Assembly (NCBI GenBank): GCA_964016885.1
Contig: OZ024740.1
Span: 98,332,001-98,396,000, forward strand
DNA length: 64,000 bases
DNA from: Eledone cirrhosa
Taxonomy: Eukaryota
Direction of reading: 5' to 3'
The position numbers were made by a program, and so were the translations under genes. Under the pieces are notes generated by a model. The model was not told the DNA's origin. It saw nothing but the letters and a program-made list of their open reading frames with translations, and did no database searches. This document shows, one piece after another, positions 12,160 through 42,702 of this stretch (positions are counted from its first letter, which is position 1; each line of letters opens with the position of its first letter).

Positions 12160-12442
12160 CACTGTAAAGTGATCATGTAGGTGACACAACACAAAGCACC
12201 CAGTCCACACTGTAAAGTGGTCGTTTAGGAGACACGGTAAAAGGCTCCCAGTCTACACTGTAAATGTGGTTGGTGTTAGGAAGGGCATCCAGCTGTAGAA
12301 AACCTGCAACAAACAGTTCTGTATGAGCAAGACATGGTTTCCTAGCCAATTTCGCATTAAGTGGGAGAAAACCGTCCAACCCATGCTAGCGTGGAAGATG
12401 GATGTTAAATGATGATGGTGATAATGATGATGATGATAATGA
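12160..12442 (+). mobile_element. RTE-type 3' tail module ending in (GAT)n
   Basis: GGTTGGTGTTAGGAAGGGCATCCAGCTGTAGAAA...GGATGTTAAATGATGATG. The same module occurs at ~6260-6650, 12972-13110 (-), 45820-45942 and 47120-47280. Confidence 0.7.
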
Positions 12443-12945: not shown

Positions 12946-14091
12946 TATATATATATATATATATATATATATCATCATCATCATCATCATTTTACATCCA
13001 CTTTTTCCCTGCTTGCAGGGGTGGCTTGATTTCTACAGCTGGAAGCCTTTCCTAACACCAACCTCATTTACAGTGAGTGCTGGGTGCTTTTTTTGCCGTG
13101 GCGCCTACATGTCCACTTTTCAGTGGAATGATAGTGACTCTGGGTGCCTATACTGGATTTTCAATAGCAACCTTTGCTAGGTGTGTTTATAGCAGATCAA
13201 GCTTTTCTGTGGAACTATCAATAGCCGTTTAAGTCATAAGTCCTTCCATCCAGCTTTCTTCATTCAGAGTGAATAAGCCAAGGAAGTTTGAGCTCGAAGA
13301 GTATCGAACTTATTCAACAAACTTATGTATAAGAAAAGCAAACTTACTGCCTTAGCACTCAAGAAGAAACACAGAACGATTGAGGAAGTCATTGAAATTA
13401 TTGAAGAAATTATAACCGAGTGAACATATTCAGGTACTGTTCAAGCACTCTGTATATCACCATTTGTAAAGGGAGAATGACTGAAGCAATTCAATAAAAC
13501 CATCCTGTTTTCCTCCTATAGTAGACATAACTCAAGAAAACACACCATAATAAGATGGATAAACAATCAGAAGTGTTGGCCCTAAGGAGAGCCTTGTAAC
13601 ATTCAATATTGCAAAGTGTCAATAATGGGGGAGAAGTTACATCTTCTTAATTCGTGTTAATCTTTCCACGATCCAACACCTAGAAATATCGATAAAATAA
13701 ACTCTACTCTCAGAGACGGCATGTTACAATTAGCATGCCGGGAGTACGAATATTCTTCAGAATATGATTTGGGTTTTATTCTTCGGACTTTTATTCTTCT
13801 AACTGATCACCGATTCCCGCAGTTGACCTTAATGTGATCTAAGCATGTGCATGTGTTCAGAATCTATATCAGTGGATGTGATATATATATATCATCATCA
13901 TCATCTTCGTTAATGTCTATCATCTTCCACACTAGCATGGGTTAGACAGGAGTTGTCCCACTTGAGGCAAGGTCGTTCGGGTGACCGTGTCTCACTCATA
14001 TATATATATATATTTATACATACAGAGACATCTAGTCTGCTTTGTTTGAAATTTCTCTATGTATATTTCTATCAACTAGAAATTGATTGAC

Positions 14092-14867
14092 ATATATATA
14101 TCTAAAATAAACACATGAAACAATGACAGGGGATAATTTGTAAAGTGGGTAAGGACACACAGCTAGGTTGGTAACTAATTAAAGTTATAACTAGAACTTC
14201 ATATATAGATACCTTTTAAAATGATTAATCTTCCTTGTATATATTTCATTAAAGAAATATATTTCACCATTAATCCGTAAACTCACAGTAGTCAAATTTC
14301 GGATTTTCAACAAGGGAGAAAATTTAACTATTTGTGTTTACACAGCAAATGCAAATCTGCGAATGATCCGTAGCACGTGTTGCATTTTAAAAAGAATACA
14401 CACTTGTACCAGCGTCATCCCAGTGGCGTGAATAGGATTATCGACAGCTAGAAATAGCAGCCGAGTCCTTTCAACTGAGTTAGCTCTACAATTAAGGGGC
14501 CGTATATATATCCAAAATTAAATTAAAGGAGTCATGTCCGAGACATGGTACGATGTATGTAGTTTTTTTTTTAAATGCAACACGTGCGACGGGACATTCG
14601 CTGATCTGCATTTGATGTGTAAACACAGATAGTTAAATCTTCTCCCTTGCTGAAAATCCGAGATTTGACTACAGCGAGTTTACGGATTAATGGTGAAATA
14701 TATTTCTTTAATGAAATATATACAAGGAAGATTAATAATTTTAAAAGGTATCTATATTTGAAGTTCTAGTTTAAATTTAATTAGTTACCTACCTAGCTGT
14801 GTGTGATTACACACTTTACAAATTATCCCCTGTCATTGTTTTATGTGTTTATTTTAGATATGTATAT
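14092..14867. mobile_element. fold-back/MITE-like element with ~300-bp inverted arms
   Basis: 14092-14400 is the reverse complement of ~14556-14867 (for example CTTCCTTGTATATATTTCATTAAAGAAATATATTTCACCATTAATCCGTAAACTC). The spacer is ~155 bp. Confidence 0.85.
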
Positions 14868-14884
14868 TTCTCATAAGTTGTTAC

Positions 14885-17129: not shown

Positions 17130-17340
17130 TTACTCTTCCCATCTCTCAATATTATAAGTAACTGCCCCAGCAGGCAGAATAGAAAAGGCATTTCTCTGAA
17201 GGATGATGAGGAATATGTGTTGGAAGAGCCATTTCAACTTGTGAGGTTCACACCTGCAGGTAGCTAAGTCTATGCTGATGGTGGTGAGTAAGGAGGTGCT
17301 CCTATGGCCTAGGACACAAGAGGTTTCCACTGCTAAAAGC
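17130..17340 (-). pseudogene. CRE/NeSL-like RLE LINE C-terminal remnant
   Basis: AVETSCVLG...LATCRCEPHKLKWLFQHIFLIILQRNAFSIL resembles the CRE-type C-terminus AVETxGxxG...EPRxxxFLxQRISxAxQRGNAxSIL. Confidence 0.55.
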
Positions 17341-17899
17341 TAATATGCTGGATTTTTAGGAATATCCCAAGACATTAGAAATGTGTGAACAATGAATACA
17401 AAGTTAAACTAGTGTTATTCACTTTTAACTTTGTTGTTTCATATAAATTATAGTAGAATATGTAAGGTGGAACAATTTCTTTCTACAAAATTTGTAATAC
17501 TTTGCAAACTTTAAAATGATTATCTAAGCAAATTGGTAACATCAAGCATGAATGATTGCGAATCTAATTTGTACTCATAATAATTTTGTAGTTAATGCGA
17601 ACATAAATTAAAGTATTTTTCAGAGTAAATCCTTTCCCCTTTGTTCTTATACCAATAACACTAATACTGAAGAAGTTGACAAAGCTTTGAGTACTAAGTC
17701 AGCAATTAAAAGGATAAATAATCTTGATGAAATTGTGAAGTACATGAAATACAGAAAGGGTAATCCACACAGAGAATGTCTGCAAAATGGCTAGCTCAAA
17801 AATAATATGAAAGAAGACAGAACAGGTTTTGTTCAAAGTGCAAATATTATGGATATCAGGTGTCTGATAAGTAGTACCACCATATCCCAGAAAGTATCC

Positions 17900-18342
17900 T
17901 TGATATAGACAAACCCAAGATACTCTTGAGTATCATTATCCAAATTGACTGCAAGACATGAATACATTAAACATGATATTGTATTTAGGCTCAAGAATAG
18001 GAGTGAATGCCAGATTATTGATATTATCATCCTAGGAGTTCACAATATAACATGAAACAAAATTAGAAAAATATCAAAATGTACTGACAAAATTTCATTA
18101 ATGTGGCCAATACCGACTAACAACATCAAAATAATTTCAAGTGTCATCAGAGCATTGCAATCAATACCTCTATAACTGAAAAGTTATCTTAAACAAATAG
18201 AGCTTGAATTACAATTTGTACTCTTACAAAAAATGTCTAGCTGGATGTTGCACAGTCAGGAAAGTCTTCTCTGTCTAAGGCCCTTGTCAAGACTCAACAG
18301 AGAAAAGATCCAGTAATTATCATAGTTAGTGTGCAAAGCATC
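17900..18342 (+). pseudogene. old decayed R4/Dong-like RLE 3' end
   Basis: CQIIDIIILGVHNI...EKYQ...LMWP...IKIISSVIRALQSIP matches the C-terminal layout of 26005-28392. It ends directly in (AAT)n at 18343-18398. Confidence 0.6.
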
Positions 18343-18399
<57 letters not shown>

Positions 18400-18400
<1 letters not shown>

Positions 18401-18900
18401 TTTTCTTTATTAACCACAAGCGTTTACATAAAGTAGACATTAAGGACAGTACAGGACAATACAGGACGGTACAAATGGGCATTTCTGCGTGTAAAAAAAC
18501 AGAGGATGAAATAAAATAACAAAGAAAAATTCCCCAATAGGGGGGAGACTTCCGAGGGACATTTGTGGAGAAAGCCCATTAAAAGACCTCAGTGGCCCTG
18601 ACCACCAGGGCAAGTGCCCTCTCCCAGTTTTCCACCTTTAATTTACAGACACATACTCAGAGAAGGCCCATTCATTCGAGCCATACTTGCTTCTCTCACC
18701 CATCTTTCAACAAAATGCTGGGAAGAGAGCACTTCCCTCTCTTCCCTGATTTTCCTTTTCAAATGAAATTTGAAAAAGTTAATCAGGGCATCACCGAAGA
18801 GGTAAGTGCTCGTCTTCAACCCTTTCAAACGTGTCCACCATACTATCTCTTTCGCCATGGCCACCAGACAGATAAAAACTGCCTGCCCTTCCCGGCTAAA
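18400..18900 (-). mobile_element. Tx1/L1-type LINE 3' fragment (copy A)
   Basis: AVFICLVAMAKEIVWWTRLKGLK and the 3' UTR are homologous to 18903-19409. The 3' end abuts (ATT)n. Confidence 0.85.
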
Positions 18901-19129
18901 TGGTTTCTTTATTGGCCACAAGGGCTAACATGAAGAAAAACATTACAGACGGCACAGAAAGGTACAGGACGATACAAAGTGAGTTTTGACCGTGTAAAAA
19001 AGGTTATAACAAGAAGATAGAAATATCAAAAAATTCAAAGATAAAAAAATTCCCCAATAGGGGGGAAAACTTCCGAGGGTCACTCATGGCGGAAACCTCA
19101 CAAAAGACCACGGCCACCCTGACCACCAG

Positions 19130-22100
19130 GGCAAGCGCCCTCTCTCAGTTTTCCACCCGTTCTCTCGGACCAGATTCGCCACTTTCACCCACCTTTCAAC
19201 TTATTTGAAGACAGCATTTGTCTCTCCATCCTCATTTTCCTCTTCAAGTGTAATTTGAAAAAGTTAATCAGTGATTCGCCGATGAGGAAAGTGTGCATCT
19301 TCAATCCTTTCAACCTTGTCCACCATACAATCTCTTTCGCCATGGCCACCAAGCAGATGAAAACTGCCTGTCCTTCCAAGAGGACAGCGGGGCTATCTGC
19401 ACAATGCACTCAGTTGATAACCGGATCCGTCCTACACGTGACAGCAAATGTTCAACATAACTCCACAAGTCAGAAATGCTCGGACACTAAACGAGTGCAT
19501 GCACAACGGTTGCGTCACTCTGTGCGCATCTCGGACAGGTTTGGCTGATGGCACTTCCATGCCTGTAGAGCTTATCTCGAACCGGCAACACTCCCCGGTA
19601 GCACTGCCAGGCCAGGGATTTCTGGAAGTTGTCCATAGGCCCCGGGCTGAAAGTTCTCTTGAAGAGAGCGAACAGCTGATAGTCTTTGATGCCCAGGGTC
19701 TCCCCGAGAACTTTGTCACTCTTCCCCTCCACTAGTCCTCTATAGAACGCCGAGGTGGATGTCCACCGATATTAGTGCCCAGCTGGTAGTAGGTTGTGAG
19801 CGCTTGGAGACATTCCAGCTTCCAAGCACTATCGCTCGGTCTTTTCCTGATACAGGACTGCAGCTCCGTTAATGAGACGAGCTTGGGAGAACATGTCTGG
19901 CAAACGGTGACCACACCTGTTCACCGTCAAGGAAGCACCAGAGATGTCACAGCCTCAGCGTGTGTCTGCATATCATCAGCCACGGCATGCACAGCCCGCC
20001 GCGCAACGGGTGTTGACAGCAGATAGATCGTCTGACCATGAGAGCATGTCCCTTCCATAAAAAGCAGAAGAGGAGGCGCTCCATTTTTGTTAGAGTTGGG
20101 CGAGAGCAAGGCACAACAGTTAAGCGGTAGCAGATGACGGATGCGAGGAACACATTCGCCACCTCTGCCCGACCTTTCAGGGACAGCTTCCTCTCGGCCT
20201 ATTTCTGGGTGAGCGAGGCCACTCTCTTCGTCACCTCGCTCCAGTTTTTCTCCATCTGGAAGTCCGGACCGAACCAGATCCCGAGCAATTTACCCGGTCC
20301 TGCCGTCCTGCATCCCACAAAGCTGTCGGGCGGCATGGACTTGCCTCTCCAGGTGCCGAGCTGCAAACCACAGACTTTTCCTGGTTTAACTTTGCTCCTG
20401 TCACTGCTTCATATTCCTTGAGAGTGCTGCCGAGCATCTGGACATGTCCGGTGTTTGACACCACCACGGTGACATCGTTGGCGTAAGCTGATACGGATCC
20501 CACACATCCCAGTTCGCGTGGGACGTCTCTCATCGCCCCCAATTTGTGCATAAGGGCTCTAGGGCCAATACTTACATGAGTGACGAGAGGGGACAACCCT
20601 GACGGACCGAGAACATGATGCTGAATGGCTGTGACAGATGACCGTTCACCTTCACAACTGAGCAGATGTTGCTGTGCATCGCAGCGATCCAAGCCCTGAA
20701 AATTGGCCCGAAACCAGCCGCCTCGAAGACCGCCACCAAGTACCGATGGTCGACCCTATCAAATGCCTTAGATTGATCTAAGTTGATCAGGGCCCCACCC
20801 GTGCCAGGTTCCTTAACCACCCTCTCTATGATGTATCGCATGATGTGGAGGTTGTCGTGGATAGATCTGTCTGGAATGGCGCATATCTACGCCTCTCCTA
20901 CCAGATTACCAACGACAAGCGCCAATCTCATTGCTAACACCTTGGCCAAAATCTTGAAGTCTGTGTTTAACAACGTTATGGGCCTGAAGTTGTCTATAAC
21001 GTCCCCTTTGTTCGGGTCTTTTCCTAACAGCGCCACCGCTCCCCAGCTCACAAATCTGGGAATGCTCCTGTTCTGCTGCCAGTTGCAGTAGACGTCTGCC
21101 AATAGGTCGCCGAACAAGTCTGGCATGTACGCATAAAGCTCGTAGGACAGACCATCCAAACCTGGCGATTTACTCCTCGTGCAGTCAGACATCGCTTCCT
21201 GTATTTCACCAGCTGTTATCGGCTTTTCGCAATACTGCACTGCGGTCGTCGAGAGGTGCGGCAGTCCCTCAAGGTATGCACTGAAGTTCTTACTCCGATC
21301 TGGCCCACCGCCGTTCCCAAACAGTTGAGCAAAGTGCTGCTGAAAAGCCTCACACATCTGCTCGGGTTCGAGTAACATGTGCCAGTTTTGGTCAGGCAAG
21401 GATTGAATTGTGGCTTTGTTGCCACGTCGCGCCTCCACCACCTGGCTCCATTGGACAGCTTTTGTCCCCTCTTATCTCAGAGCACGCACTCTAGCTTTGA
21501 CAATGCAGCCTTCGTGCTTTGCATTTAAGAATTGGTCGAGTGCCAATCTTGCTGCAAGGACGTCGATTGTGATCCCTGTCCTAAATGCCTCTTCTAGCTT
21601 TCTAACTAGCTCTCCTTCTACTCTATTTTCCTCTATCTTTACTCCTTTGCTAAACCTTATTTATTCTACTCTAATTGACCTTTTCAGGGTAAACCACCAC
21701 CTGTTGTTGACGATCGCACCCGTCAACGCACGCTCAACTAATTCGCTTCTCCGGTCTCTGTAAGCTTTGTGCGCCTGGAAAGACGCGTTCAGCTTCCAGT
21801 AACCAGGTCCTTGCCTATGAAGTCTATCTAAGTCGACTTCCCAGATCACAAATTTGTGGTCTGAGTAGACGACTTCTTTAAATTGTGGACAACTTACGCT
21901 AGCCTTATCTGTTTCCCTACACAATACCCTATCTAGATACGATCTGGATGACCCGTTGCGGTTTGCCCATTTCCACATTGGCACATTCGGATAATCCAGT
22001 CGATACCTGTCAGACAGTTCAAACCGTCTGAGCAGGTTGGTTGAGGCGTTTACATCCTCCTCCCCTATTTACTAGACCCACATAATCCCAGCGTGCATCT

Positions 22101-22530
22101 AAGATACCGTTCCAGTCACCCACTAACACTAAAGAACGGGACGTTCCAAGAAAGGTTTCTAGACGTCTGAAGAAATCTGGCCGTCCTGCCGCTGTTGCGG
22201 CGTAGATGGCTAGTAGCCTGAAAGTATTGCCTTCACTGCCGGTCACGTCCAGCACCACCGACTTACCTTCTGGTTCCAGGAAGATGGCTCGTATGGCGAG
22301 ATCCAAGCCTCTCCGAAAAAGCACAGTAACTCCGCGCCTCGCTCCCGGACGGCTGGGAGATGTGTATACATCGTAGCTGCCGAATATCGGTGCGAAGGCT
22401 CGTGCTTCGGAGATTCTTGTCTCGCTGATGGCCACCATATCTATGTTTAGTGACCTGAGATCGTTAGACCCTGCTTCCAAGATGACCCCAGGCCATGTAT
22501 ATTTATACTGCCTATTTTAAGTAAGGCCAT
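19130..22530 (-). pseudogene. Tx1-like ORF2 (APE endonuclease, RT, C-terminal Zn finger)
   Basis: Starts MALLKIGSIN. APE motifs AISETR, VGDWN, SYLDRV, YSDH and GPGYWKLN. RT motifs KSPGLDGL, NFRPITLLNTDFKILAK, LDQSKAFDRVDH, VRQGCPLS and SAYAND. Zn finger CPRCAQSDATVVHAL. Several frameshifts. Confidence 0.9.
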
Positions 22531-22567
22531 GTTCGGTGAGGAAATGGAGTAAGTGAAAAAGGATCAC

Positions 22568-24500
22568 CTACCCTCATCGTGTGGGGACGGGACAGTTGAA
22601 CCGTCCCTTTGGCTGGACATGGGTGTATCCAAGATGATGTCGGTGTATATCCTCTTGGTAACCGACCCTCTGAAGTCTCCAACTGAGTTGGGGAATTTTT
22701 CTTTTAAATGTTTGTAATGTTCTATTTTAATTTCAATAAACGGGAGAGTTCTTGGTGTTGCTGGGGTGTAGTCATTTTTGTCCGTAATGTCTGTGTGCTG
22801 CTTTATATATTCTAAGAGTTCTTTATTTGCCAGGTTTATGGCTGTGTAATGTTTTTGGGGTGGTTTGGTTTTGTTGCTGTCTTCTTGTTGCTGCTGTTGA
22901 GTATGTTAGTCTTGTTGTGTTTGCGATGTTGATGTTTGTGGTGATGCTGGTGGTGGTGGTGTGGTGGTTGTTGATGGTGATGGTGGTGGTTGTTGGTGGT
23001 GATGGTGGTGGCGTTGCTGCGAGTCGTCTTGCAGCATTTACCCCTCTTTGTTTTCCTTCGCTTTTGGAGAGTGAAGCTAAGGGTTTTTTTTGTTTTTTGT
23101 TTTTTTGTGGCAGACCGTTTGTCACTTCACTCCTGCCTCAGACTCCATGTCGGATTCCGTGGCGTCTGGGAGGGGTATATGCTCCACGGCTGTTGGTGGT
23201 GGTAGTGGAGCCCTCGCCAGCGATTTTGTTGCTGGTGCAGCTACTGTAAATGTAGCTACTGGTGTTGCCACCACTGATGCTGCTGCTTTAGTTGTCCGTG
23301 GCCTTGGTACAGGTGCCACGGACGTTGCCCTCCGACTCACCGTGGAAGGGTCTTCTGCGTTTGTTGCCTGCCGTGCTCTTGTTAGCAGCGGACCAGGCAT
23401 TAGAAGGAGGAGGGGTCTCCTTCGCTGTCTTCTGCGGGAAAAAAGCCCTGAGGTGACCGTTTGACCCACAGAGATAACATTTTGGCCATCTTCCTTCCAT
23501 GCTTATAGGCAGTTGGAGTCCTTCCTCGAGGTCTATGATATAGGGGATAGCGTCGATACACTCCTGGTCAGTTTGTATAAGCATTTGCATGCCTATACCT
23601 GAGCAGTTCTCTCTCCCTATTTTCTCTACTTGCAGCATGGTCGTCCTGTTCTCGATTCCAGCAAGGACAGATGCGGCCAGCCAATGTATGGGCATGTCGG
23701 GTGGGACCTGGGTCACTTTGAACCTCACAATTTTCTGCCCGCAGTAGGAGGGCACCAATACTATCTCCTCACTCTTTAGGTTTTCCAAAGAGTGAGACTT
23801 CGCGTCTTGAGGGGTAGCAAAAAGTACCTCCACTGTGGAATATTCTCTACCTCGGGTGATGTGAGTTTTGCGCGCCCAGATGCACCCCAAGGCCTTTTGG
23901 ATTTGAGCCTCCGTGACTCTCTCCACCATGTGACATTTTGCTTACGGTGTGGTAAGTCACCGTCCATAGCTTCTGGTCCTTGAAAAAATTGGATGGAGGT
24001 TTCAGGGAAACTCTGTTGGAGTTTCTTGTCACCGTGGCCCTTGCGACTGCCATCTCCTCTCCTGTGACTAACACTGTTTCGATATTTCGGGCGACACCTG
24101 CAAAAGAAGTGGTCCCTTTTTCAGCGGCACCACTATTGCTGCCGCTACTGGTCTTACTGGTGGTGCTGAGATCGCTGTTAATGGTATTGATGTCATTGTT
24201 GATGTTTTCGTTGGTACTGTTGTTGCTGTTATTGTTGTTATTGTTGTCATTGTTGTTGTTTTCGTTGATACTGTTGCTGTTGTTACTGTTATTGTGGCTG
24301 TTGTTATTATTGTTGTTATTGTTGATACTGTCCCTACTATTATTGTTGTTGTGGCTGTTGTTATTGTCATTGTTCTTGTCGTTCTCGACTTTGCCTCTAT
24401 TATTTCTGTTGTTGATGTTGTTATTGATGGTGTTGTTGCTGTTGTGATTGATGGTGTTGTTGTTGGTGTTATTATTGGTGTTGTTTGTGTTAGAAATATT
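22568..24500 (-). pseudogene. Tx1-like ORF1 (low-complexity Thr/Asn N-terminus, zinc knuckle)
   Basis: The 23288-23929 segment contains EGRWPKCYLCGSNGHLRAF, a degenerate CCHC knuckle. It lies upstream of ORF2. Confidence 0.7.
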
Positions 24501-24572
24501 TGGTAATTTTAAATCTGTAACAATATCATTAAAAATGATATTGTTCCTCTTTTCCTTCGTAATATTTTAAGC

Positions 24573-24737
24573 ATTAGACTTAGACTTAAACCCCAACCCA
24601 AGTCTCAGAATTAGACTTAAACCCTAACGCCAAGCATTAGACTTAGACTTAAACCCCAAAACCAAGCCTTAGACTTAAACCCTAAACCCAAGACTTAGAC
24701 TTAAACCCCTACCACAAGCCTTAGACTTAGACTTAAA
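24573..24737. repeat. ~28-34 bp tandem minisatellite of TTAGAC units and AAACCC(C/T)AA in the Tx1 5' region
   Basis: About five units of TTAGACTTAGACTTAAACCCYAA.C.AAGC. Confidence 0.85.
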
Positions 24738-25099
24738 CATAGACACACACACACACACATACGGCCCATCTTCGCTAGAACGCTGTCGTCTTGAGATGTT
24801 GACAAAGTCTGCCTCTCTCTGTGTTGTCTGACAGCGCTCTCTCTCTTTCTTGTGTTATCCATGTTGAAAGAACTTTTTTTTTTTTTCAAATAATATTATT
24901 ACATAATACGAAACCCCGTAAAGGGGTGCCATATTATTTACGAGAGAACTCCTGTATTAGGTGGGTCATTTCTTCTAAACTTTTATCAAGTTTATCACTT
25001 GAATAAAAGGTTAAGAGCGGTTGAAAACGTGGTAAACTGTTGAAAAGAACTGGAGCCGATAAGAAGCGTGGCTTCACCTTCAATAATAATAATAATAAT

Positions 25100-25283
25100 T
25101 GTTTCTACTTTAGGCACAAGGCCAGCAATTAACCAGTACATTACTGGTACTTTAGTTTATCGACCCCGTAAGGATGAAAGGCAAAGTTAACCTTGGCGGG
25201 ATTTAAACTCAGACCGTAAAGGGACGTAACTATGCTAGAAAGCATGACGTCCAACCTTCTACCGATACTGCCAATTCACCGCC
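25100..25283 (-). mobile_element. SINE family A inside (AAT)n
   Basis: Full-length copy with (AAT)n on both sides. Confidence 0.9.
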
Positions 25284-25300
25284 ATAATAATAATAATAAT

Positions 25301-25548
25301 GATTTCTTTATTGGCCACAAGAGCTGACATCAAGAAAAACATTACAGACGGCACAGGACGGTACAGGACGGTACGATGTGGGTTTTGTGCTTGTAAAGAT
25401 TTTTATTATTTATATAAGAAAAGAAAAAAAGACATAGAAACATATAAATATATAAACAATAAAAATGAAAATTGAAACAATGAAAAATCCCCAATAGGGG
25501 AGAAACCTCCGAGGGTTACTTGTGGCGAAAACCACACAAAAGACCACG
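25301..25548 (-). mobile_element. Tx1/L1-type LINE 3' UTR fragment (copy C)
   Basis: TTTCTTTATTGGCCACAAG...CCCCAATAGGGG...TCCGAGGG matches 18903-19110. Flanked by AAT repeats. Confidence 0.85.
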
Positions 25549-25934
25549 AATAATAATGCCTGATTGTAGATGTAGCCTGCCCATTTGACACGAGAGTGCT
25601 AGAAAAGGAGATGGAGAAAATTAACCAATACCAGGACTTAAAGTGGTAGTTAAAAAGGATTTGGAACTGCCATGAGATCAAGGTCGTTCCGATTGTCATA
25701 GGAGCACTAGGTACTATATCAACGAGTTTTCAAGGGTGGTTAAAGAAGATTAGTCCAGCCCCGTTTTTTGGAACACTACAAAAGGCATGCTTGCTGGGAA
25801 CAGCAATAATCCTCCGATATTTCCTAAATATCTGAGGCTCCAGGTAGCAGCTTGATATTCATTCCAACAAACTCTCCAGTTAAATAACATCAATGACTGA
25901 GTCTCAAAGAACAATAAAAATAATAATAACAATG

Positions 25935-25971
<37 letters not shown>

Positions 25972-26004
25972 GAGAACAGAGTCAGTCAGTATAAACAGAA
26001 CCGC

Positions 26005-28392
26005 ATGTTCGACAACAACCAGAAGATGCTGTTTGGACAGCTTGAGGGGAAAGAAAGAGGCACCGACTTGATCCCTGGGGCGGAACAAGCTAAAACATTC
26101 TGGAGAGGAATATGGGAGCAGGATGTTAGACACAATGCCCAGGCAGGGTGGATTGAGACAGTACAGAGGGAGATCGGTGAGCAGGCACAGCAACAGACTG
26201 ATTTGAGTATCACAGTTGAAACTCTTAAGGGGCAAGCCAAAAAACTAACCAACTGGAAATCACCAGGCCCAGATGGTGTGCAGGGGTATTGGATTAAACA
26301 TTTAACATCCCTCCACCCGAAGCTGACGGCCATGTTCAATGACTGCTTGGTGTCGGGTGAGGTGCCAGAGTGGTTGACAAAAGGTACCACAGTTCTGATA
26401 ATGAAAGACCGAATCAAGGGTAATGATGTTACCAACTATAGACCTATCACATGTCTGCCCGTAATGTGGAAACTGTTGACGAGCATTGTGTCTGAGGAAA
26501 TCTACCATCACCTCCACACAAACAACTTGTTGCCGGACGAACAGAAAGGATGCCGAAAGAAGTCACGTGGTACAAAGGACCAGTTGCTTATTGATAAGAT
26601 GGTAATGGGGAATTGCAGGAGGAGACACACTGATCTTGCCATGGGATGGATAGACTACAGAAAGGCATTTGACATGGTGCCTCATTCCTGGATCACCAAA
26701 AGCCTGGAGATCTTCAGGGTGGCAGATAACATCAGACAGTTGCTGGGCAGGAGTATGGGGTCCTGGGAGACAGAGTTGACATCAACTGGAGTATCCTTGG
26801 GAAGCGTGAAGATCAAGAGAGGTATCTTCCAGGGAGATAGCCTGTCCCCTCTGTTGTTTGTCCTTGCCCTGATGCCCTTGACCATTATGCTGCGAAAAGT
26901 GAGAGCAGGATACAAGTTGGGAAGGGGAGGGCTTACCATCAATCACCTCCTCTTCATGGACGATCTTAAGCTCTTCGGGAAAAGTGAGAAGGAGTTGGAT
27001 GTGCTTGTTGACACTGTCCGTATTTTCAGCAGTGATATATGTATGCAGTTTGGTATTGGTAAATGTGGAGTCATTGTGATGAGGAGGGGTAGGTTGAGCA
27101 GAAGTAACGGGATCCAGATACCAACAGGTGAGATGATAAAGGAAATTGACTCTGAGGAAGGATACAAGTATTTGGGCGTTCTGGAGGCTGATGGCATAAA
27201 GAACAAAAAAATGAAGGAATTGTTAAGAACTGAATACATTCGGAGAGTAAGGAGCGTATTGAAGTCACATCTGAACAGCAGAAATGCCATAAGCGCAGTA
27301 AATTCCCGAGCTGTGTCTATTATTAGGTACAGTGCGGGAATTCTGAGATGGAATGTTGCTGAACAAAAAGAAATGGATAGGAAGACTAGGAAGCTATTGA
27401 CTATCTACAACATGTTCCACAAGAGGAGTGATGTCGATAGACTCTACCTAAGGAGATCTGAGGGTGGAAGAGGTCTTATCAGCATAGAGGACTGTGTTCA
27501 GATGGAGAAAAACAACCTATACAAATACGTGACCTATAGTAAGGAGCCAATGCTCAGAGCTGTACTGAAGGAGGGGACAGTAGGCCAGGGGATACCCAAG
27601 GAGGAAATAACATCAAGGAGGAAGAGCAGCCTTAAGGGAAAATCCCTTCATAGTACCTTCTTTGAGAAAACTGAATTTAGAGATCCACAGACATGGAACT
27701 GGTTGAGAAGAGGAGACCTCAAAAAGGCTACAGAAGGAATGCTAATGGCTGCGCAGGAGCAGGCCCTCAAAACGAAGTGGTTGAAGCACCATATCTACAA
27801 GGAGGAGGCTAGCCCACTGTGCAGCATCTGTGGAGAGAGAGAGGAGACTGTGGCTCACATTGTGTCCGAGTGTAAACACCTAGCCCAGACCCACTATAAG
27901 GGCTGGAGACACGATGTGATGGGCAGGGTGATCCACTGGCACCTGTGCAAAGTAAACAATCTACCACATTCTGAGAAATGGTATGAGCATAGGCCAGAGG
28001 CAGTGATGGAGAACAGTCAGGTGAAGGTGCTGTGGGATTTTAGGATACAGACGGACAAAAAACTGGAACACAATAGACCTGACCTGGTGGTTGTGGACAA
28101 AGAAAAAAGATCGTGCCTGATTGTGGATGTGGCCTGCCCGTTCGACACGAGAGTGCAAGAGAAGGAGAGGGAGAAAATTAACCGATACCAGGACCTAAAG
28201 TGGGAGGTGAAAAGGATTTGGAACTGCCATGAAGTCAAAGTGATCCCGATTGTCATAGGCGCACTGGGGACTATCTCCAAAGGTTTCCAGGGATGGTTAA
28301 AGAAAATCGGCCCCTTCACGCTTTTTGGAACGCTTCAAAAGGCATGCTTGCTTGGAACGGCAAGAACCCTCCGATACGTCCTGAATATCTGA
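26005..28392 (+). CDS. R4/Dong-type RT + CCHC + restriction-like endonuclease (5'-truncated, frame open)
   Basis: NWKSPGPDG, NYRPITCL, WIDYRKAFDMVPH, GIFQGDSLSP, HLLFMDD, CSICGEREETVAHIVSEC, RHD, RPDLVV...IVDVACP...K. Confidence 0.9.
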   Translation: MFDNNQKMLFGQLEGKERGTDLIPGAEQAKTFWRGIWEQDVRHNAQAGWIETVQREIGEQAQQQTDLSITVETLKGQAKKLTNWKSPGPDGVQGYWIKHLTSLHPKLTAMFNDCLVSGEVPEWLTKGTTVLIMKDRIKGNDVTNYRPITCLPVMWKLLTSIVSEEIYHHLHTNNLLPDEQKGCRKKSRGTKDQLLIDKMVMGNCRRRHTDLAMGWIDYRKAFDMVPHSWITKSLEIFRVADNIRQLLGRSMGSWETELTSTGVSLGSVKIKRGIFQGDSLSPLLFVLALMPLTIMLRKVRAGYKLGRGGLTINHLLFMDDLKLFGKSEKELDVLVDTVRIFSSDICMQFGIGKCGVIVMRRGRLSRSNGIQIPTGEMIKEIDSEEGYKYLGVLEADGIKNKKMKELLRTEYIRRVRSVLKSHLNSRNAISAVNSRAVSIIRYSAGILRWNVAEQKEMDRKTRKLLTIYNMFHKRSDVDRLYLRRSEGGRGLISIEDCVQMEKNNLYKYVTYSKEPMLRAVLKEGTVGQGIPKEEITSRRKSSLKGKSLHSTFFEKTEFRDPQTWNWLRRGDLKKATEGMLMAAQEQALKTKWLKHHIYKEEASPLCSICGEREETVAHIVSECKHLAQTHYKGWRHDVMGRVIHWHLCKVNNLPHSEKWYEHRPEAVMENSQVKVLWDFRIQTDKKLEHNRPDLVVVDKEKRSCLIVDVACPFDTRVQEKEREKINRYQDLKWEVKRIWNCHEVKVIPIVIGALGTISKGFQGWLKKIGPFTLFGTLQKACLLGTARTLRYVLNI

Positions 28393-28571
28393 GGCTGCAG
28401 GTAGTGGCTTGATATTCAATCCAACGGACTTTCCAGTTAACCAACATCAATGACTGAGATTCAAGGAATAACAATAACAATAATAATAATAATAATAATA
28501 ATAATAATCAGGCAGGGTGGATTGAGACAGTACAGAGGGAGATCGGTGAGCAGGCACAACAACAGACTGAT

Positions 28572-30761
28572 TTGAGTATCACAGTTGAAACTCTTAAGGG
28601 GCAGGCCAAAAAACTAACCAACTGGAAATCACCAGGCCCAGATGGTGTGCAGGGGTATTGGATTAAACATTTAACATCCCTCCACCCGAAGCTGACGGCC
28701 ATGTTCAATGACTGCTTGGTGTCGGGTGAGGTGCCAGAGTGGTTGACAAAAGGTACCACAGTTCTGATAATGAAAGACCGAATCAAGGGTAATGATGTTA
28801 CCAACTATAGACCTATCACATGTCTGTCCGTAATGTGGAAACTGTTGACGAGCATTGTGTCTGAGGAAATCTACCATCACCTCCACACAAACAACTTGTT
28901 ACCGGACGAACAGAAAGGATGCCGAAAGAAGTCCCGTGGTACAAAGGACCAGTTGCTTATTGATAAGATGGTAATGGGGAATTGCAGGAGGAGACACACT
29001 GATCTTGCCATGGGATGGATAGACTACAGAAAGGCATTTGACATGGTGCCTCATTCCTGGATCACCAAAAGCCTGGAGATCTTCAGGGTGGCAGATAACA
29101 TCAGACAGTTGCTGGGCAGGAGTATGGGGTCCTGGGAGACAGAGTTGACATCAACTGGAGTATCCTTGGGAAGCGTGAAGATCAAGAGAGGTATCTTCCA
29201 GGGAGATAGCCTGTCCCCTCTGTTGTTTGTCCTTGCCCTGATGCCCTTGACCATTATGCTGCGAAAAGTGAGAGCAGGATACAAGTTGGGAAGGGGAGAG
29301 CTTATCATCAATCACCTCTTCTTCATGGACGATCTTAAGCTCTTCGGGAAAAGTGAGAAGGAGTTGGATGTGCTTGTTGACACTGTCCGTATTTTCAGCA
29401 CTGATATATGTATGCAGTTTGGTATTGGTAAATGTGGAGTCATTGTGATGAGGAGGGGTAGGTTGAGCAGAAGTAACGGGATCCAGATACCAACAGGTGA
29501 GATGATAAAGGAAATTGACTCTGAGGAAGGATACAAGTATTTGGGCGTTCTGGAGGCTGATGGCATAAAGAACAAAAAAATGAAGGAATTGTTAAGAACT
29601 GAATACATTCGGAGAGTAAGGAGCGTATTGAAGTCACATCTGAACAGCAGAAATGCCATAAGCGCAGTAAATTCCCGAGCTGTGTCTATTATTAGGTACA
29701 GTGCGGGAATTCTGAGATGGAATGTTGCTGAACAAAAAGAAATGGATAGGAAGACTAGGAAGCTATTGACTATCTACAACATGTTCCACAAGAGGAGTGA
29801 TGTCGATAGACTCTACCTAAGGAGATCTGAGGGTGGAAGAGGTCTTATCAGCATAGAGGACTGTGTTCAGATGGAGAAAAACAACCTATACAAATACGTG
29901 ACCTATAGTAAGGAGCCAATGCTCAGAGCTGTACTGAAGGAGGGGACAGTAGGCCAGGGGATATCTAAGGAGGAAATAACATCAAGGAGGAAGAGCAGCC
30001 TTAAGGGAAAATCCCTTCATAGTACCTTCTTTGAGAAAACTGAATTTAGAGATCCACAGACATGGAACTGGTTAAGAAGAGGAGACCTCAAAAAGGCTAC
30101 AGAAGGAATGCTAATGGCTGCGCAGGAGCAGGCCCTCAAAACGAAGTGGTTGAAGCACCATATCTACAAGGAGGAGGCTAGCCCACTGTGCAGCATCTGT
30201 GGAGAGAGAGAGGAGACTGTGGCTCACATTGTGTCCGAGTGTAAACACCTAGCCCAGACCCACTATAAGGGCTGGAGACACGATGTGATGGGCAGGGTGA
30301 TCCACTGGCACCTGTGCAAAGTAAACAATCTACCACATTCTGAGAAATGGTATGACCATAGGCCAGAGGCGGTGAGGGAGAACAGTCAGGTGAAGGTGCT
30401 GTGGGATTTTAGGATACAGACGGACAAAAAACTGGAACACAATAGACCTGACCTGGTGGTTGTGGACAAAGAAAAAAGATCGTGCCTGATTGTGGATGTG
30501 GCCTGCCCGTTCGACACGAGAGTGCAAGAGAAGGAGAGGGAGAAAATTAACCGATACCAGGACCTAAAGTGGGAGGTGAAAAGGATTTGGAACTGCCATG
30601 AAGTCAAAGTGATCCCGATTGTCATAGGCGCACTGGGGACTATCTCCAAAAGTTTCCAGGGATGGTTAAAGAAAATCGGCCCCTTCACGCTTTTTGGAAC
30701 GCTTCAAAAGGCATGCTTGCTTGGAACAGCAAGAACCCTCCGATACGTCCTGAATATCTGA
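28572..30761 (+). CDS. second R4/Dong-type RT-RLE copy (5'-truncated, frame open)
   Basis: Differs from 26005-28392 by only a handful of residues. The frame begins at the truncation point, 28509. Confidence 0.9.
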   Translation: MSITVETLKGQAKKLTNWKSPGPDGVQGYWIKHLTSLHPKLTAMFNDCLVSGEVPEWLTKGTTVLIMKDRIKGNDVTNYRPITCLSVMWKLLTSIVSEEIYHHLHTNNLLPDEQKGCRKKSRGTKDQLLIDKMVMGNCRRRHTDLAMGWIDYRKAFDMVPHSWITKSLEIFRVADNIRQLLGRSMGSWETELTSTGVSLGSVKIKRGIFQGDSLSPLLFVLALMPLTIMLRKVRAGYKLGRGELIINHLFFMDDLKLFGKSEKELDVLVDTVRIFSTDICMQFGIGKCGVIVMRRGRLSRSNGIQIPTGEMIKEIDSEEGYKYLGVLEADGIKNKKMKELLRTEYIRRVRSVLKSHLNSRNAISAVNSRAVSIIRYSAGILRWNVAEQKEMDRKTRKLLTIYNMFHKRSDVDRLYLRRSEGGRGLISIEDCVQMEKNNLYKYVTYSKEPMLRAVLKEGTVGQGISKEEITSRRKSSLKGKSLHSTFFEKTEFRDPQTWNWLRRGDLKKATEGMLMAAQEQALKTKWLKHHIYKEEASPLCSICGEREETVAHIVSECKHLAQTHYKGWRHDVMGRVIHWHLCKVNNLPHSEKWYDHRPEAVRENSQVKVLWDFRIQTDKKLEHNRPDLVVVDKEKRSCLIVDVACPFDTRVQEKEREKINRYQDLKWEVKRIWNCHEVKVIPIVIGALGTISKSFQGWLKKIGPFTLFGTLQKACLLGTARTLRYVLNI

Positions 30762-31164
30762 GGCTGCAGGTAGTGGATTGATATTCATTCCAACGGACTT
30801 TCCAGTTAACCAACATCAATGACTGAGATTCAAGGAATAACAATAACAATAATAATAATAATAATTATAATTAAAGTGGGAGGTAAAATGGATTTGGAAC
30901 AGCCATGAAGTCAAAGTGGTCCCGATTGTCATAGGCGCACTAGGTAATATCTCAAAAAGTTTCCAGGGATGGCTAAGGAAAATTGGCCCCTTCACGCTTT
31001 TTGGAACGCTTCAAAAGGCATGCTTGCTGGGAACAGCAAGAACCCTCCGATACGTCCTGAATATCTGAGGCTGCAGGTAGTGGCTTGATATTCATTTCAA
31101 CAAACTTTCCAGTTAACTAACATCAATGACTGAGACTCAAAGAATAATAATAATAATAATAATA

Positions 31165-33654
31165 AAGCTAAATATTATCATAGAGGAACTGAAGCAACGC
31201 ATTGTAGCAAAGAGTGCAAAAATCAGGCGATACGAGAACAGAGTCAGCCAGTATAGACAGAACCGCATGTTCGACAACAACCAGAAGATGCTGTTTGGAC
31301 AGCTTGAATGGAAAGAAAGAGGCAACGACTTGATCCCTGAGGCGGAACAAACTAAAACATTCTGGAGAGGAATATGGGAGCAGGATGTTAAACATAATGA
31401 CCAGGCAGTGTGGATTGATACAGTACAGAAGGAGATCAGTGAACAGGCACACCAACAAACTGATTTGAGTATCACAGTTGAAACTCTTAAGGGGCAGGCC
31501 AAAAAACTAACCAACTGGAAATCACCAGGCCCAGATGGTGTGCAGGGGTATTGGATTAAAAACATAACATCCCTCCACCCGAAACTGACAACCATGTTCA
31601 ATGACTGCTTGATGTCAGGTGAGGTACCAGAGTGGTTGACAAAAGGTACCAGAGTTCTGATAATGAAAGACCGAATCAAGGGTAATGATGTTACCAACTA
31701 TAGACCTGTCACATGTCTGTTCGTAATGTGGAAACTGTTGACAAGCATTATGTTTGAGCAAATCTACCATCACCTCCACACAAACAACTTGTTACCGGGC
31801 GAACAGAAAGGATGCCAAAAGAAGTCACGTGGTACAAAGGACCAGTTACTTATTGATAAGATGGTAATGAGGAATTGCAAGAGGAGACACACTGGTCTTG
31901 CCATGGGATGGATAGACTACAAAAAGGCATTTGACATGGTGCCTCATTCTTGGATCACCAAAAGCCTGGAGATATTCAAGGTGGCAGATAACATCAGACA
32001 GTTGTTGGGCAAAAGTATGAAGTCCTGGGAAACAGAGTTAACATCAACTGGAGAATCCTTGGGAAGCGTGAAGATCAAGAGAGGTATCTTCCAGGGAGAT
32101 AGTCTGTCCCCTCTGTTGTTTGTCCTTGCCCTGATGCCCCTGACCAGAGTACTGCGAAAAGTGAGAGCAGGATACAGGTTGGGAAAGGGAGGGCTTACCA
32201 TCAATCACCTCCTCTTCATGGACGATCTTAAGCTCTTCGGGAAGAGTGAGAAGGAGTTGAATGTGCTTGTTGACACTGTCCGTATTTTCAGCAATGATAT
32301 ATGTATGCAATTTGGTATTAGTAAGTGTGGAGTCATTGTGATGAGGAGGGGTAATTTGAGCAGAAGTAACGGAATCCAGATACCAACAGGTCAGATGATA
32401 AAGGAAATTGACTCTGAGGAAGGATACCAGTATTTGGGCGTTCTGGAGGCTGATGACATCAAGAACAAAAAAATGAAGGAATTGATAAGATATAAATACA
32501 TTCGGAGAGTAAGGAGCGTATTAAAGTCACATCTGAACAGCAGAAATGCTATAAGCGCAGTAAATTGCCGAGCTGTGTCTATTATTAGGTACAGTGCGGG
32601 AATTCTGAGATGGAATGTTGCTGAACAAAAAGAAATGGACAGGAAGACTAGGAAGCTATTGACTATCTACAATATGTTCCACAAGACGAGTGATGTCGAT
32701 AGATTCTACTTAAGGAGATCTGAAGGTGGAAGAGGTCTTATCAGCATAGAGGACTGTGTTCAGATGGAGAAAAACAACCTACACAAATACGTGACTGATA
32801 GTAAGGAGCCAATGCTCAGAACTGTACTGAAGGAGGGGACAATAGGCCAGGGGATGTCCAAGGAGGAAATAACATCAAGGAGGAAGAGCAGCCTTCAGGA
32901 AAAATCCCTTCATAGTACCTTCTTTGAGAAAACTGAATTTAGAGATCCACAGACATGGAACTGGTTGAAAAGAGGAGACCTTAAAAAGGCTACATAAGGA
33001 ATGTTAATGGCTGTGCAGGAGCAGGCCCTCAAAACGAAGTGGTTGAAACACCATATTTACAAGGAGGAGGCTAGCCGACTGTGCAGGATCTGTGGGGAGA
33101 GAGAGGAGACTGTTACTCACATTGTATCCGAATGTAAACACCTAGCCCAGACTCACTATAAGGGCTGGAGACATGATGTAATGGGCAGGGTGATCAATTG
33201 GCACCTATGCAAAGTAAACAATTTACCACATTCTGAGAAGTGGTATGAGCATAAGCCAGAGGCGGTGATAGAAAACTATCAGGTGAAGGTGCTGTGGGAT
33301 TTTAGGATACAGACGGACAAGAAACTGGAACACAATAGACCTGACCTGGTGGTTTTGGACAAAGAAAAAAGATAGTGCCTGATTGTGGATGTGGCCTGCC
33401 CATTCGACACGAGAGTGCAAGAGAAGGAGAGGGAGAAAATTAACCGATACCAGGACTTAAAGTGGGAGGTAAAAAGGATTTGGAACTGCCATGAAGTCAA
33501 AGTGATCCCGATTGTCATAGGCACACTAGGGACTATCTCAAAAAGTTTCCCGGGATGGTTAAGGAAATTTGGCCCCTTCACGCTTTTTGGAACGCTTCAA
33601 AAGGCATGCTTGCTGGGAACAGCAAGAACCCTCCGATACGTCCTGAATATCTGA
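31165..33654 (+). pseudogene. third, more diverged R4/Dong-type RT-RLE copy with two in-frame stops
   Basis: Same domains, with TAA at 32995-32997 and TAG at 33373-33375. Confidence 0.9.
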
Positions 33655-33730
33655 GGCTGCAGGTAGTGGCTTGATATTCATTTCAACAAACTTTCCAGTT
33701 AACTAACATCAATGACTGAGACTCAAAGAA

Positions 33731-33773
<43 letters not shown>

Positions 33774-34742
33774 AATAATGATAATAGCAAACTTAATAAC
33801 TGCTACTGATAGGTGGGACTTTTCTACCTGCCAATTGATTGTAGTATAAATGGACAATAAAACAAAGCAGCTTGGATACTATTGCAATTTATGTCCTCTT
33901 AGATCCTGTAATATATTTCAAAACAAGCAACATTCAATTGCTTGACAGAATATATCTGAATCTCTTGAGAAAAAAAATTTAATTAAGTGAGTTTTCTGAT
34001 ATATTGTGCTATGATATCTGAATGTAATTATTAGATATTTGTCCAATATGATAATAATATCATTTGGACAGAAATTATCTTTTCCCATTGCTCTATCATT
34101 AGTTCAGACATTATCAATACTGTATTTGACTTGAGAGGTATAACCTAAGCTGATGCCTTTAAATGTTTATCTTTGATGCAGAAATATCAATCAGCTCAAA
34201 CTCCCATAACATTGTAAACTGTGTAATCTATATGCAGTTGAGTTATCAAAACTTTTACATATGCTCTCCCAAAAGTGACATAAAGAGAAAACACAGATAT
34301 TTCTTCAACAGTGTCAACGAGTCGGATTATAAGCTCATTTCCAGGTAGTATTTGATGCAAATACACATTTAGATGATTAAACTTTCAGATGCAGGTTAGA
34401 GAAAAATATAAGACCAAGATAGAATAAAAACTATAGAATCAAGCTGAAAACAAAGTCCTTCTTCCCTTGTCATGAACTGGAACTGAGTTTTGTATTCTAT
34501 AAATAGATTTTACAAGACAATAACAACATAGAGATGATGAATTGCAGTAATAGTAAAGTAAAGGCTAAAAAATATTTAGTTACAAATGTTTACATTCTGA
34601 ACAAACTATACTGCTTGAGATCAAGAGTTTATTTTCCCCTTTACAGAAGCTTAAAAGAAAGATAAGTCCTGGAGTCGACATAAACTGATACTTCTCTTCT
34701 CAATTTTGTGAGATTGTGCACAAATTAGAGATTATTATTTTT

Positions 34743-41590: not shown

Positions 41591-41919
41591 CATCATCATC
41601 ATCATTTTACGTCCGCTTTTCCCTGCTTGCAAGGGTGGGACGGGAACTGATTCTAGCTTGATTTCTACAGCTAGATGTCCTTCCTTACACCAACCTCATT
41701 TAGAGTGTGGGCTGGGTGCTTTTTTCTGTGACACCCCCATGACCACTTTGCAGTAGAATGATACGGACCCCAGTCCCTATCATCTCATTTCTACAGCTGA
41801 GTAAACTGGAGCAATGTGAAATAAAGTGTCTTGCTCAAGGAAATAACACATCACTCGGTCTGAGAATTGAACTCACAACCTTTCGATTGCAAGGCCAGTG
41901 CTCTAACCACTAAGCCTCC
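41591..41919 (-). mobile_element. SINE family B (tRNA head, RTE-type tail with (GAT)n)
   Basis: Reverse complement of 45598-45942. Confidence 0.88.
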
Positions 41920-42666: not shown

Positions 42667-42702
42667 AATAATATTTATTCATATCCATACAGTGTCTTTG
42701 TC

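What the first reader, a model, noticed from the sequence alone, without database searches (positions are those of the whole stretch)
17900..33785. 16-kb retrotransposon nest grown on (AAT)n, with strict family-specific orientation
Seen: an old Dong-like 3' end runs into (AAT)n at 18343. It is followed by three Tx1-like copies and a SINE, all on the minus strand, then five R4/Dong-like copies, all on the plus strand. Most junctions are AAT repeats. Known: Dong (R4 clade) inserts into TAA repeats, and some Tx1 elements are microsatellite-specific. Inferred: an APE-type and an RLE-type LINE converge on the same microsatellite from opposite strands, and each insertion regenerates target, making a self-amplifying TE sink. 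Opposed orientations could also make this a source of small RNAs.
Basis: partly seen in the sequence, partly recalled or inferred. Interest (0 to 1): 0.75.

Follow-up and report, generated by a model that had tools for sequence, protein, structure and literature searches.

The report
Opposite-facing retrotransposons sharing AAT repeats
Nine young jumping-gene copies are stacked in one AAT repeat, and across this genome the two unrelated kinds involved sit in such repeats facing opposite ways, likely because their enzymes cut opposite DNA strands and each insertion leaves fresh repeat for the next.

Summary
The nest is real: an old restriction-like-endonuclease (RLE) LINE tail, three Tx1-like copies and a SINE on minus, five Dong-like copies on plus; 9 of 10 boundaries are (AAT)>=3. 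It is not a special locus. The families have thousands of copies (7,719 Dong 3' ends; 8,525 Tx1 3' ends). The repeat is a target, not only a tail: 59 of 74 Dong 5' junctions carry (AAT)>=3, none ATT (background 0.23%); 197 of 200 listed full-length Tx1 5' ends carry the repeat on the other strand. Neighbouring Dong and Tx1 copies face opposite ways in 110 of 111 pairs. Against strictness: 5'-truncated Tx1 copies keep the repeat in only about 30%, and the SINE uses a short ATTAT site genome-wide. Small-RNA production is untested, and this window lacks a Dong promoter. Each ingredient has precedent (Dong on TAA, Kibi/Koshi, TRAS1/SART1, Keno/Utopia); an (ATT)n-targeting Tx1 sharing a dispersed microsatellite with Dong was not found in nine paper searches. 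This scan noted the same system before on other DNA of this genome (8 notes seen). New variant of a known kind.

The parts
17791..18342 (+). Old, decayed 3' end of an RLE-type LINE (zinc knuckle region, endonuclease, 3' UTR) of the same protein family as the Dong-like copies; a different, older family
   Evidence: blastx to homologue P0118 E 4e-12, profile E 6e-10, flanks negative
18343..18399 (+). (AAT)19; tail of the old LINE and 3' flank of the first Tx1-like copy
18400..18900 (-). Tx1-like copy T1, 5'-truncated, young subfamily
   Evidence: 98.4% to dispersed copies; joins T2 by a short AA microhomology with no tract
18902..25081 (-). Tx1-like copy T2, full length (5' UTR, ORF1, ORF2 with APE endonuclease and RT), broken by stops and frameshifts
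   Evidence: Pfam Exo_endo_phos E 1.6e-6; tblastn with intact ORF2 in several frames; 5' end matches 316 genomic 5' ends; best other copy 88%
25082..25099 (+). (AAT)6 between the T2 5' end and the SINE tail
25100..25283 (-). 184-bp SINE, abundant family; inserts at ATTAT with target-site duplications
   Evidence: about ten more copies in the window
25284..25300 (+). (AAT)5 between the SINE 5' end and the T3 tail
25301..25548 (-). Tx1-like copy T3, 5'-truncated 3' UTR fragment
   Evidence: 96% to dispersed copies
25549..25557 (+). (AAT)3 between two 5' ends (T3 and D1); neither element's tail can have made it
25557..25912 (+). Dong-like copy D1, 5'-truncated, oldest of the five
   Evidence: best other copy 91.9%
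25913..25970 (+). Impure (AAT)n tract
25971..28466 (+). Dong-like copy D2, 5'-truncated, open frame of 807 codons (RT, CCHC knuckle, RLE)
   Evidence: Pfam RVT_1 E 4e-23; 99.76% to a dispersed copy versus 99.18% to D3
28467..28508 (+). (AAT)n tract
28509..30835 (+). Dong-like copy D3, 5'-truncated at a different point, open frame of 767 codons
30836..30871 (+). (AAT)n tract
30872..31142 (+). Dong-like copy D4, 5'-truncated
   Evidence: 97.8% to dispersed copies
31143..31163 (+). (AAT)7
31164..33728 (+). Dong-like copy D5, 5'-truncated, second subfamily, in-frame stops
   Evidence: 97.0% to dispersed copies
33729..33786 (+). Terminal (AAT)n tract, then low-copy DNA
   Evidence: a short-read contig matches 33793-34600 without difference

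Best explanation
This is one of many nests in which a Dong/R4-like LINE and Tx1-like LINEs sit in the same (AAT)n microsatellite facing opposite ways, likely because the Dong-like endonuclease nicks the ATT strand and the Tx1-like endonuclease the AAT strand before target-primed reverse transcription. Shown: both families have the repeat at 5' junctions, each on its own strand, and end in that repeat. Inferred: an insertion splits one tract into two and adds a repeat tail, so an occupied site stays a target for both families and grows step by step; here nine insertions of different ages accumulated in the tail of an older RLE LINE. Inferred: the Tx1 enzyme reads a short ATTAT-type site and makes duplications of about 10-18 bp, and joining of truncated 5' ends often removes the upstream tract. 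The SINE likely borrows Tx1-type proteins and lands in nests with Tx1 polarity, but mostly uses ATTAT sites elsewhere.
For: Dong 5' junctions, mostly truncated: 59 of 74 resolved have (AAT)>=3, 0 ATT, background 0.23% (16 of 90 ran off the fetched DNA). Full-length Dong 5' ends: 87 of 100 listed have >=2 AAT units, 7 AAG, 4 a duplicated head, 2 other. Full-length Tx1 5' ends: 100 of 100 and 97 of 100, the other 3 AAC-rich; none on the wrong strand. Dong-Tx1 neighbours opposite in 110 of 111 pairs in 163 non-redundant segments. Dong 3' ends cluster: 31 of 99 neighbour pairs within 15 kb against 2.3 expected, 30 of 31 same strand. 12 of 22 perfect tracts of >=6 units in 600 kb of evenly spaced DNA abut a Dong or Tx1 copy. 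Window copies have different truncation points and ages, and D2 is closer to a dispersed copy than to D3. 26 of 36 SINE duplications start ATTAT. Intact members have the expected enzymes.
Against: Truncated Tx1 copies: only 17 of 57 and 4 of 15 have (AAT)>=3 at the 5' junction; some sit at single ATTAT-like sites (L082) or inside a SINE with no repeat (L105). Some of the 57 ends are false (alignment lost in divergent ORF1). Which strand is nicked is inferred from the general mechanism, not measured. The 12 of 22 figure is small and several tracts come from one nest (L222). Anchored loci are all from contig C1. No read spans the array.
Confidence: 0.85

Rival explanations
1. Tx1 is not repeat-specific: it uses a short ATTAT site plus pairing of its AUU tail, and full-length copies carry the 5' repeat with them in their RNA; only Dong truly targets the microsatellite.
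For: Large gap between full-length (about 99%) and truncated (about 30%) Tx1 5' junctions; AAC drift next to some 5' ends; the SINE uses ATTAT without a tract.
Against: Truncated copies are still about 100-fold above background (30% versus 0.26%); 5 of the 9 tract-less young truncated copies directly abut another nest member; 0 of 21 full-length copies show a unique-sequence duplication outside the two tracts (weak test, since later insertions separate the flanks).
Confidence: 0.1
2. Insertion is loosely AT-rich; nests are survivors of selection or low recombination, and the repeats are tails of earlier copies.
For: Many 5' tracts are tails of neighbours; clustering alone does not show targeting.
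Against: Passive retention predicts no strand rule, yet 110 of 111 Dong-Tx1 pairs are opposite and 0 of 74 Dong 5' junctions have ATT; the tract at 25549-25557 lies between two 5' ends.
Confidence: 0.03
3. The plus-strand half is a tandem duplication or assembly stutter.
For: D2 and D3 are 99.2% identical; short-read contigs cannot span the array.
Against: Five different 5' truncation points; D2 is 99.76% identical to a dispersed copy, more than to D3; D1, D4 and D5 belong to other age classes; similar nests of at least 13 kb recur and one fell into the random sample.
Confidence: 0.02

Closest known systems
Dong (R4 clade; Bombyx mori, DongAg, DongBg, Darwinula Dong1/2)
   Same: Single ORF with RT and RLE, no N-terminal zinc finger, inserted in (TAA)n with the TAA strand upstream of the 5' end (PMC3812793, PMC7998251, PMC3774820, passages). 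Dong-R4 families are recorded as abundant and young in octopus genomes (PMC13282606 Table 1; PMC9115989 passages).
   Different: Nothing essential. Here it shares its tracts with an APE-type family; a minority of copies sit in AAG tracts (7 of 100). No tree against named Dong sequences could be built.
Microsatellite-specific Tx1 families: Kibi, Koshi, crocodilian (TTCC)n/(TTTC)n Tx1
   Same: Two ORFs, APE endonuclease, RT closest to L1 among solved structures, head-to-tail stacking in a simple repeat (PMC4494074 passages and section 15).
   Different: Reported targets are TC, TTC, TTCC and TTTC; the target here is (ATT)n, which I did not find for Tx1 in the searches. Kojima and Fujiwara 2004 and Repbase were not readable.
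TRAS1 and SART1 of Bombyx mori
   Same: Two LINE families insert into one simple repeat in opposite directions, set by endonuclease strand choice (PMC7265360, passages).
   Different: Those share the telomeric repeat and are both APE-type R1-clade elements (clade per PMC4640811 passage and recall). Here the partners have unrelated endonucleases and the target is dispersed and largely self-made.
Keno (Tx1, APE) and Utopia (RLE) in U2 snRNA genes
   Same: Parallel evolution of APE and RLE LINEs onto one target (PMC4640811, passage).
   Different: That target is a gene, with identical 3' flanks; no opposite polarity or mixed nests are described in the passages seen.
Crocodilian SINEU with Tx1-Mar
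   Same: A SINE thought to be moved by Tx1 proteins, sharing target preference more weakly than the LINE (PMC4494074 sections 15-16).
   Different: Target is a Mariner element, not a microsatellite; heads are snRNA-derived. The head of this SINE was not identified.

Membership tests
R4/Dong clade | Single long ORF with non-LTR RT | tested here: met
   Intact 1,141-codon frames in dispersed copies; Pfam RVT_1
R4/Dong clade | C-terminal CCHC knuckle and PD-(D/E)xK endonuclease, no APE domain | tested here: met
   Conserved motifs in a 64-sequence alignment (motif names recalled); best sequence and fold matches are R2 proteins; no Exo_endo_phos hit
R4/Dong clade | No N-terminal zinc finger (unlike R2) | tested here: met
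   Only one conserved Cys and no conserved His in residues 1-330
R4/Dong clade | Divergent N-terminal Myb/SANT domain (PMC7998251) | tested here: inconclusive
   Confident helical bundle at residues 46-116 with conserved Trp; no Pfam Myb hit; domain not searched alone
R4/Dong clade | (TAA)n target on the sense strand | tested here: met
R4/Dong clade | RT tree placement with named Dong/R4 sequences | not testable with these tools
   No named reference among homologues
R4/Dong clade | 5' HDV-like ribozyme (PMC3774820) | tested here: inconclusive
   No Rfam ribozyme match in L145 or L164; Rfam models may not cover it
Tx1 clade (L1 group) | ORF2 with N-terminal APE endonuclease, RT and C-terminal zinc-binding region | tested here: met
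   Intact copy L159: Exo_endo_phos E 3e-14, RVT_1, zf-RVT; L1 ORF2p best in PDB, E 2e-53 versus R2 4e-22
Tx1 clade (L1 group) | Separate ORF1 with a CCHC knuckle (feature recalled) | tested here: met
   723-codon ORF1 with a CX2CX4HX4C motif read from the sequence
Tx1 clade (L1 group) | Target preference in more than 20% of flanks (criterion of PMC4494074) | tested here: met
Tx1 clade (L1 group) | RT tree placement in Tx1 rather than L1 proper | not testable with these tools
   Homologues carry no clade names; the Tx1 label rests on architecture, target habit and recall
Tx1-dependent SINE | 3' end shared with the partner LINE | tested here: inconclusive
   About 25 nt of loose likeness and the same tail; no unusual folding, z from -1.8 to 0.2
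Tx1-dependent SINE | Same insertion signature as the LINE | tested here: met
   Duplications starting ATTAT; same polarity as Tx1 in 31 of 34 repeat-bridged pairs
piRNA cluster or small-RNA source | Small RNAs or antisense transcripts from the array | not testable with these tools
   Needs small-RNA data from this species

The most novel reading that the evidence does not exclude
Two unrelated LINE clades build each other's niche: their tails have made about half of the genome's long (AAT)n tracts, the tracts draw both families in fixed opposite polarity, and read-through across tail-to-tail junctions yields antisense RNA against the partner, so that thousands of self-assembled nests act as dispersed silencing traps and as sites where Tx1 5' and 3' modules are swapped.
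Probability: 0.2. Interest if true: 0.75.

Novelty: new variant of a known kind. Interest (0 to 1): 0.5.

Why it matters
It adds (ATT)n to the targets of Tx1-like LINEs and gives a natural pair of unrelated endonucleases that read one three-base repeat from opposite strands, with intact young copies of both available for assays. The two families make up roughly 2% of the sampled DNA (14 kb of 600 kb), so the rule may explain TE hotspots and much of the long AAT microsatellite in octopod-like genomes, and it warns that AAT markers there often sit in LINE ends. It makes testable whether target-specific LINEs expand their own safe harbour, and which enzyme moves a very abundant SINE.

Tried and rejected
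A DNA search of the own genome with a Dong 3' stretch returned nothing because common words are skipped; exact patterns were used instead. No RNA holder listed. Public short-read contigs support both low-copy flanks (17300-18333 and 33793-34600, no differences; possibly the source sample) but no listed piece bridges an inner junction or shows an empty allele: inconclusive. Rfam found no convincing RNA family in the nest or in three intact copies; ARAGORN found no tRNA. The shared 3' hairpin of SINE and Tx1 was not supported by folding. A single-sequence fold of the Dong N-terminus was low confidence and discarded. The first automated Tx1 junction count used a reference with a nested copy and was redone. 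A search for unique duplications around full-length Tx1 found 0 of 21. An unexpected-cluster reading of motif 'u2' as a non-autonomous element was dropped: it is internal to the second Dong-like family. Inverted-repeat double-stranded RNA between the opposed families was rejected: they share no DNA similarity.
Full report
Observation. From left to right: a decayed RLE-LINE 3' end on plus (about 17791-18342; blastx E 4e-12 to a homologue, profile E 6e-10, flanking controls negative); (AAT)19; T1 (18400-18900), T2 (18902-25081), a SINE (25100-25283) and T3 (25301-25548) on minus; then D1-D5 on plus (25557-33728) and a last tract to 33786. Nine of ten boundaries hold three or more AAT units; T1/T2 has one, overlapping a short microhomology. 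The tract at 25549-25557 lies between two 5' ends, so it cannot be a tail of either neighbour. T2 is full length but broken. All five D copies are 5'-truncated at different points; D2 and D3 keep open frames of 807 and 767 codons.

What the families are. The window lies on contig C1 of a 3.0-Gb genome. The closest named protein to the minus-strand family is from Argonauta hians (73%), so the host is likely an octopod. Dispersed intact copies were found for both. The plus family is about 4.5 kb with a 1-kb 5' UTR and one 1,141-codon frame: RT, CCHC knuckle and restriction-like endonuclease motifs, no N-terminal zinc finger (motif names recalled), a confident N-terminal helical bundle, best matches R2 by sequence and fold. 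This fits the description of R4/Dong in PMC7998251 (passages). The minus family is about 6 kb with a 723-codon ORF1 bearing a CCHC motif and a 1,161-codon ORF2 with APE endonuclease, RT and zinc-binding region, closest to L1 ORF2p in the PDB. Homologues carried no clade names, so 'Dong' and 'Tx1' rest on architecture, target and recall, not on a tree.

Copy numbers (exact patterns, lower bounds). Dong 3' end 7,719; Dong full 5' end 1,138; two Tx1 3' variants 1,952 and 6,573; two Tx1 5' variants 2,552 and 316. In 60 evenly spaced 10-kb stretches the two families cover 8.8 and 5.2 kb of 600 kb.

Target or tail. For 90 Dong 3' ends on C1 (90 of the 100 listed), 74 5' junctions were resolved and 16 ran off the fetched DNA: 59 have (AAT)>=3 within 24 nt, none has ATT, 15 have neither; background is 46 of 19,880. 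Of the 15, by eye six abut Tx1 or SINE sequence, two an AAG tract, four are 5' rearrangements next to a tract or within the UTR, three are unexplained. Of 100 listed full-length Dong 5' ends, 87 follow at least two AAT units, 7 AAG, 4 a duplicated head, 2 other DNA (counted by eye; one letter excluded at the pattern's first place). For Tx1, 100 of 100 and 97 of 100 listed full-length 5' ends adjoin the repeat on the opposite strand, the other three AAC-rich (one letter excluded at the last place). Truncated Tx1 copies are weaker: 17 of 57 have three units and 22 of 57 at least two, against 0.26% and 2.7% background (22 of 90 ran off the edge, and some ends are alignment failures in divergent ORF1). 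For the younger subfamily, 49 ends were found, 20 at an edge and 6 under 90% identity were dropped: 8 of 8 full-length have the tract; of 15 truncated, 4 have three units, 2 two units, 9 none, of which 5 directly abut another nest member and one has the wrong-strand tract. Some copies sit at single ATTAT-like sites with a clear duplication (L082) or inside a SINE (L105).

Polarity and nesting. In 163 non-redundant segments (1.25 Mb), Dong and Tx1 hits within 150 bp face opposite ways in 110 of 111 pairs; among repeat-bridged pairs Dong-Dong are same-sense in 73 of 74, Tx1-Tx1 in 37 of 38, SINE-Tx1 in 31 of 34, and SINE-Dong opposite in 22 of 24. Three nests of over 13 kb appear within the fetched segments. 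Downstream of the 90 Dong ends the next element is an opposed Tx1 in 28, another Dong in 27, an opposed SINE in 7, none in 26, contrary in 2. Dong ends cluster: 31 of 99 neighbour pairs within 15 kb against 2.3 expected, 30 on the same strand. In the random sample 12 of 22 perfect tracts of six or more units abut one of the LINEs, 3 a SINE, 7 neither; several come from one nest, so this is a rough figure. It fits target supply by the elements themselves without needing an extra preference.

The SINE. Of 67 random copies with an intact 3' end, 58 are followed by ATTAT, 36 have a duplication of 8 or more bases (26 starting ATTAT), and only 6 have (ATT)>=3 at the 5' side (examples). It is therefore not microsatellite-specific. 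Its last 25 or so bases loosely resemble the Tx1 3' end, but folding is unremarkable, so the partnership is likely, not shown.

History of this nest. Identity to the nearest sampled copy ranks T2 88%, D1 92%, SINE 94%, T3 96%, D5 97%, D4 97.8%, T1 98.4%, D3 99.2%, D2 99.8% (depends on which subfamilies were sampled). The two families alternated over time. D2 is closer to a dispersed copy (99.76%) than to D3 (99.18%), which argues for separate insertions rather than duplication or assembly stutter. Short-read contigs match both low-copy flanks but cannot span the array.

Mechanism. By target-primed reverse transcription (established knowledge), the strand complementary to the RNA's 3' end is nicked and primes cDNA. 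An element ending in UAA repeats would nick the ATT strand; one ending in AUU repeats the AAT strand. This accounts for the polarity; the nicks were not measured. Each event leaves repeat on both sides. Loss of the upstream tract at truncated 5' ends is inferred from direct head-to-head joins. The rival that Tx1 carries its 5' repeat and reads only ATTAT stays open at about 10%.

Small RNA. Opposed copies of unrelated families make no inverted repeat. In this window no Dong copy has a 5' end, and the only full-length element, T2, points away from the Dong copies. Read-through antisense RNA is possible in other nests with tail-to-tail full-length copies; it is untested.

Comparison with what is known. 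Dong on (TAA)n in insects, molluscs and cnidarians: PMC3812793, PMC7998251, PMC3774820 (passages). Tx1 families on TC, TTC, TTCC and TTTC repeats and a Tx1-dependent SINE: PMC4494074 (passages, sections 15-16; supplements not held, and its Figure 3 lists targets I could not see). Opposite-direction sharing of one repeat: TRAS1/SART1, PMC7265360 (passages). APE/RLE convergence on one site: Keno/Utopia, PMC4640811 (passages). Octopus repeat surveys list Dong-R4 and L1-Tx1; the passages I saw describe no targets: PMC13282606 (first third and passages), PMC9115989, PMC8967140, PMC4758252 (passages). Xiong and Eickbush 1993 was not held; Kojima and Fujiwara 2004 was seen only as cited; Repbase was not available. 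Searches showed no (ATT)n-targeting Tx1 or Dong/Tx1 co-occupation. Eight earlier notes of this scan describe the same system on other DNA of this genome; they are not independent support.

Verdict. Real, genome-wide, a new target and a new pairing for known habits; this locus is a good example rather than an exception. Interest 0.5.

Noticed in passing
L159, L131, L153, L099, L062: Tx1-like copies combine at least three different 5' UTR/ORF1 modules with two or more ORF2/3' modules; for example L159 and L131 are 95.7% identical over the 3' 3.7 kb but unrelated upstream.
   Followed up: partly
G000:C1:55423680-55449638, 56169676-56181795, 57085851-57098000: Head-to-tail runs of three to five Tx1-like 3' ends at about 6-7 kb spacing.
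   Followed up: no
L164 and many loci: A second, distinct Dong-like family (1,216-codon intact frame) uses the same tracts in the same polarity as the first.
   Followed up: partly
L170, L173, L176; 7 of 100 rows: Dong-like 5' ends next to (AAG)n, often grading from (AAT)n; possible secondary target.
   Followed up: no
L038, L111, L117: The SINE has inserted three times at nearly the same AT-rich spot of the Tx1 3' UTR, antisense to the LINE.
   Followed up: no
window 47340-50224: 584-bp direct repeats (98.5%) flank an ORF with Pfam DUF7041 (48425-49285, E 3e-12): likely a small, young LTR-element derivative.
   Followed up: partly
window 10125-11278: Fragmented RT on plus with a C-terminal Cys-rich region, a third LINE type (Pfam RVT_1 E 7e-15, weak PHD).
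   Followed up: no
window 59096-59980: 294-codon open frame without Pfam hit, ending in a motif that recalls Penelope-like elements (recalled, not tested).
   Followed up: no
window 42756-45000, 41589-45938, 14089-14870: Inverted repeat pairs of 753, 358 and 326 bp at about 90% identity, probably DNA transposon or MITE arms.
   Followed up: no
window 12160-12264 and 46865-47086: The same 48-bp tandem unit occurs at two places.
   Followed up: no
window 24569-24738: The 5' region of T2 holds a degenerate tandem array with telomere-like TTTAGGG/TTAAG words on the minus strand, absent from alignment with L062 (gap).
   Followed up: no
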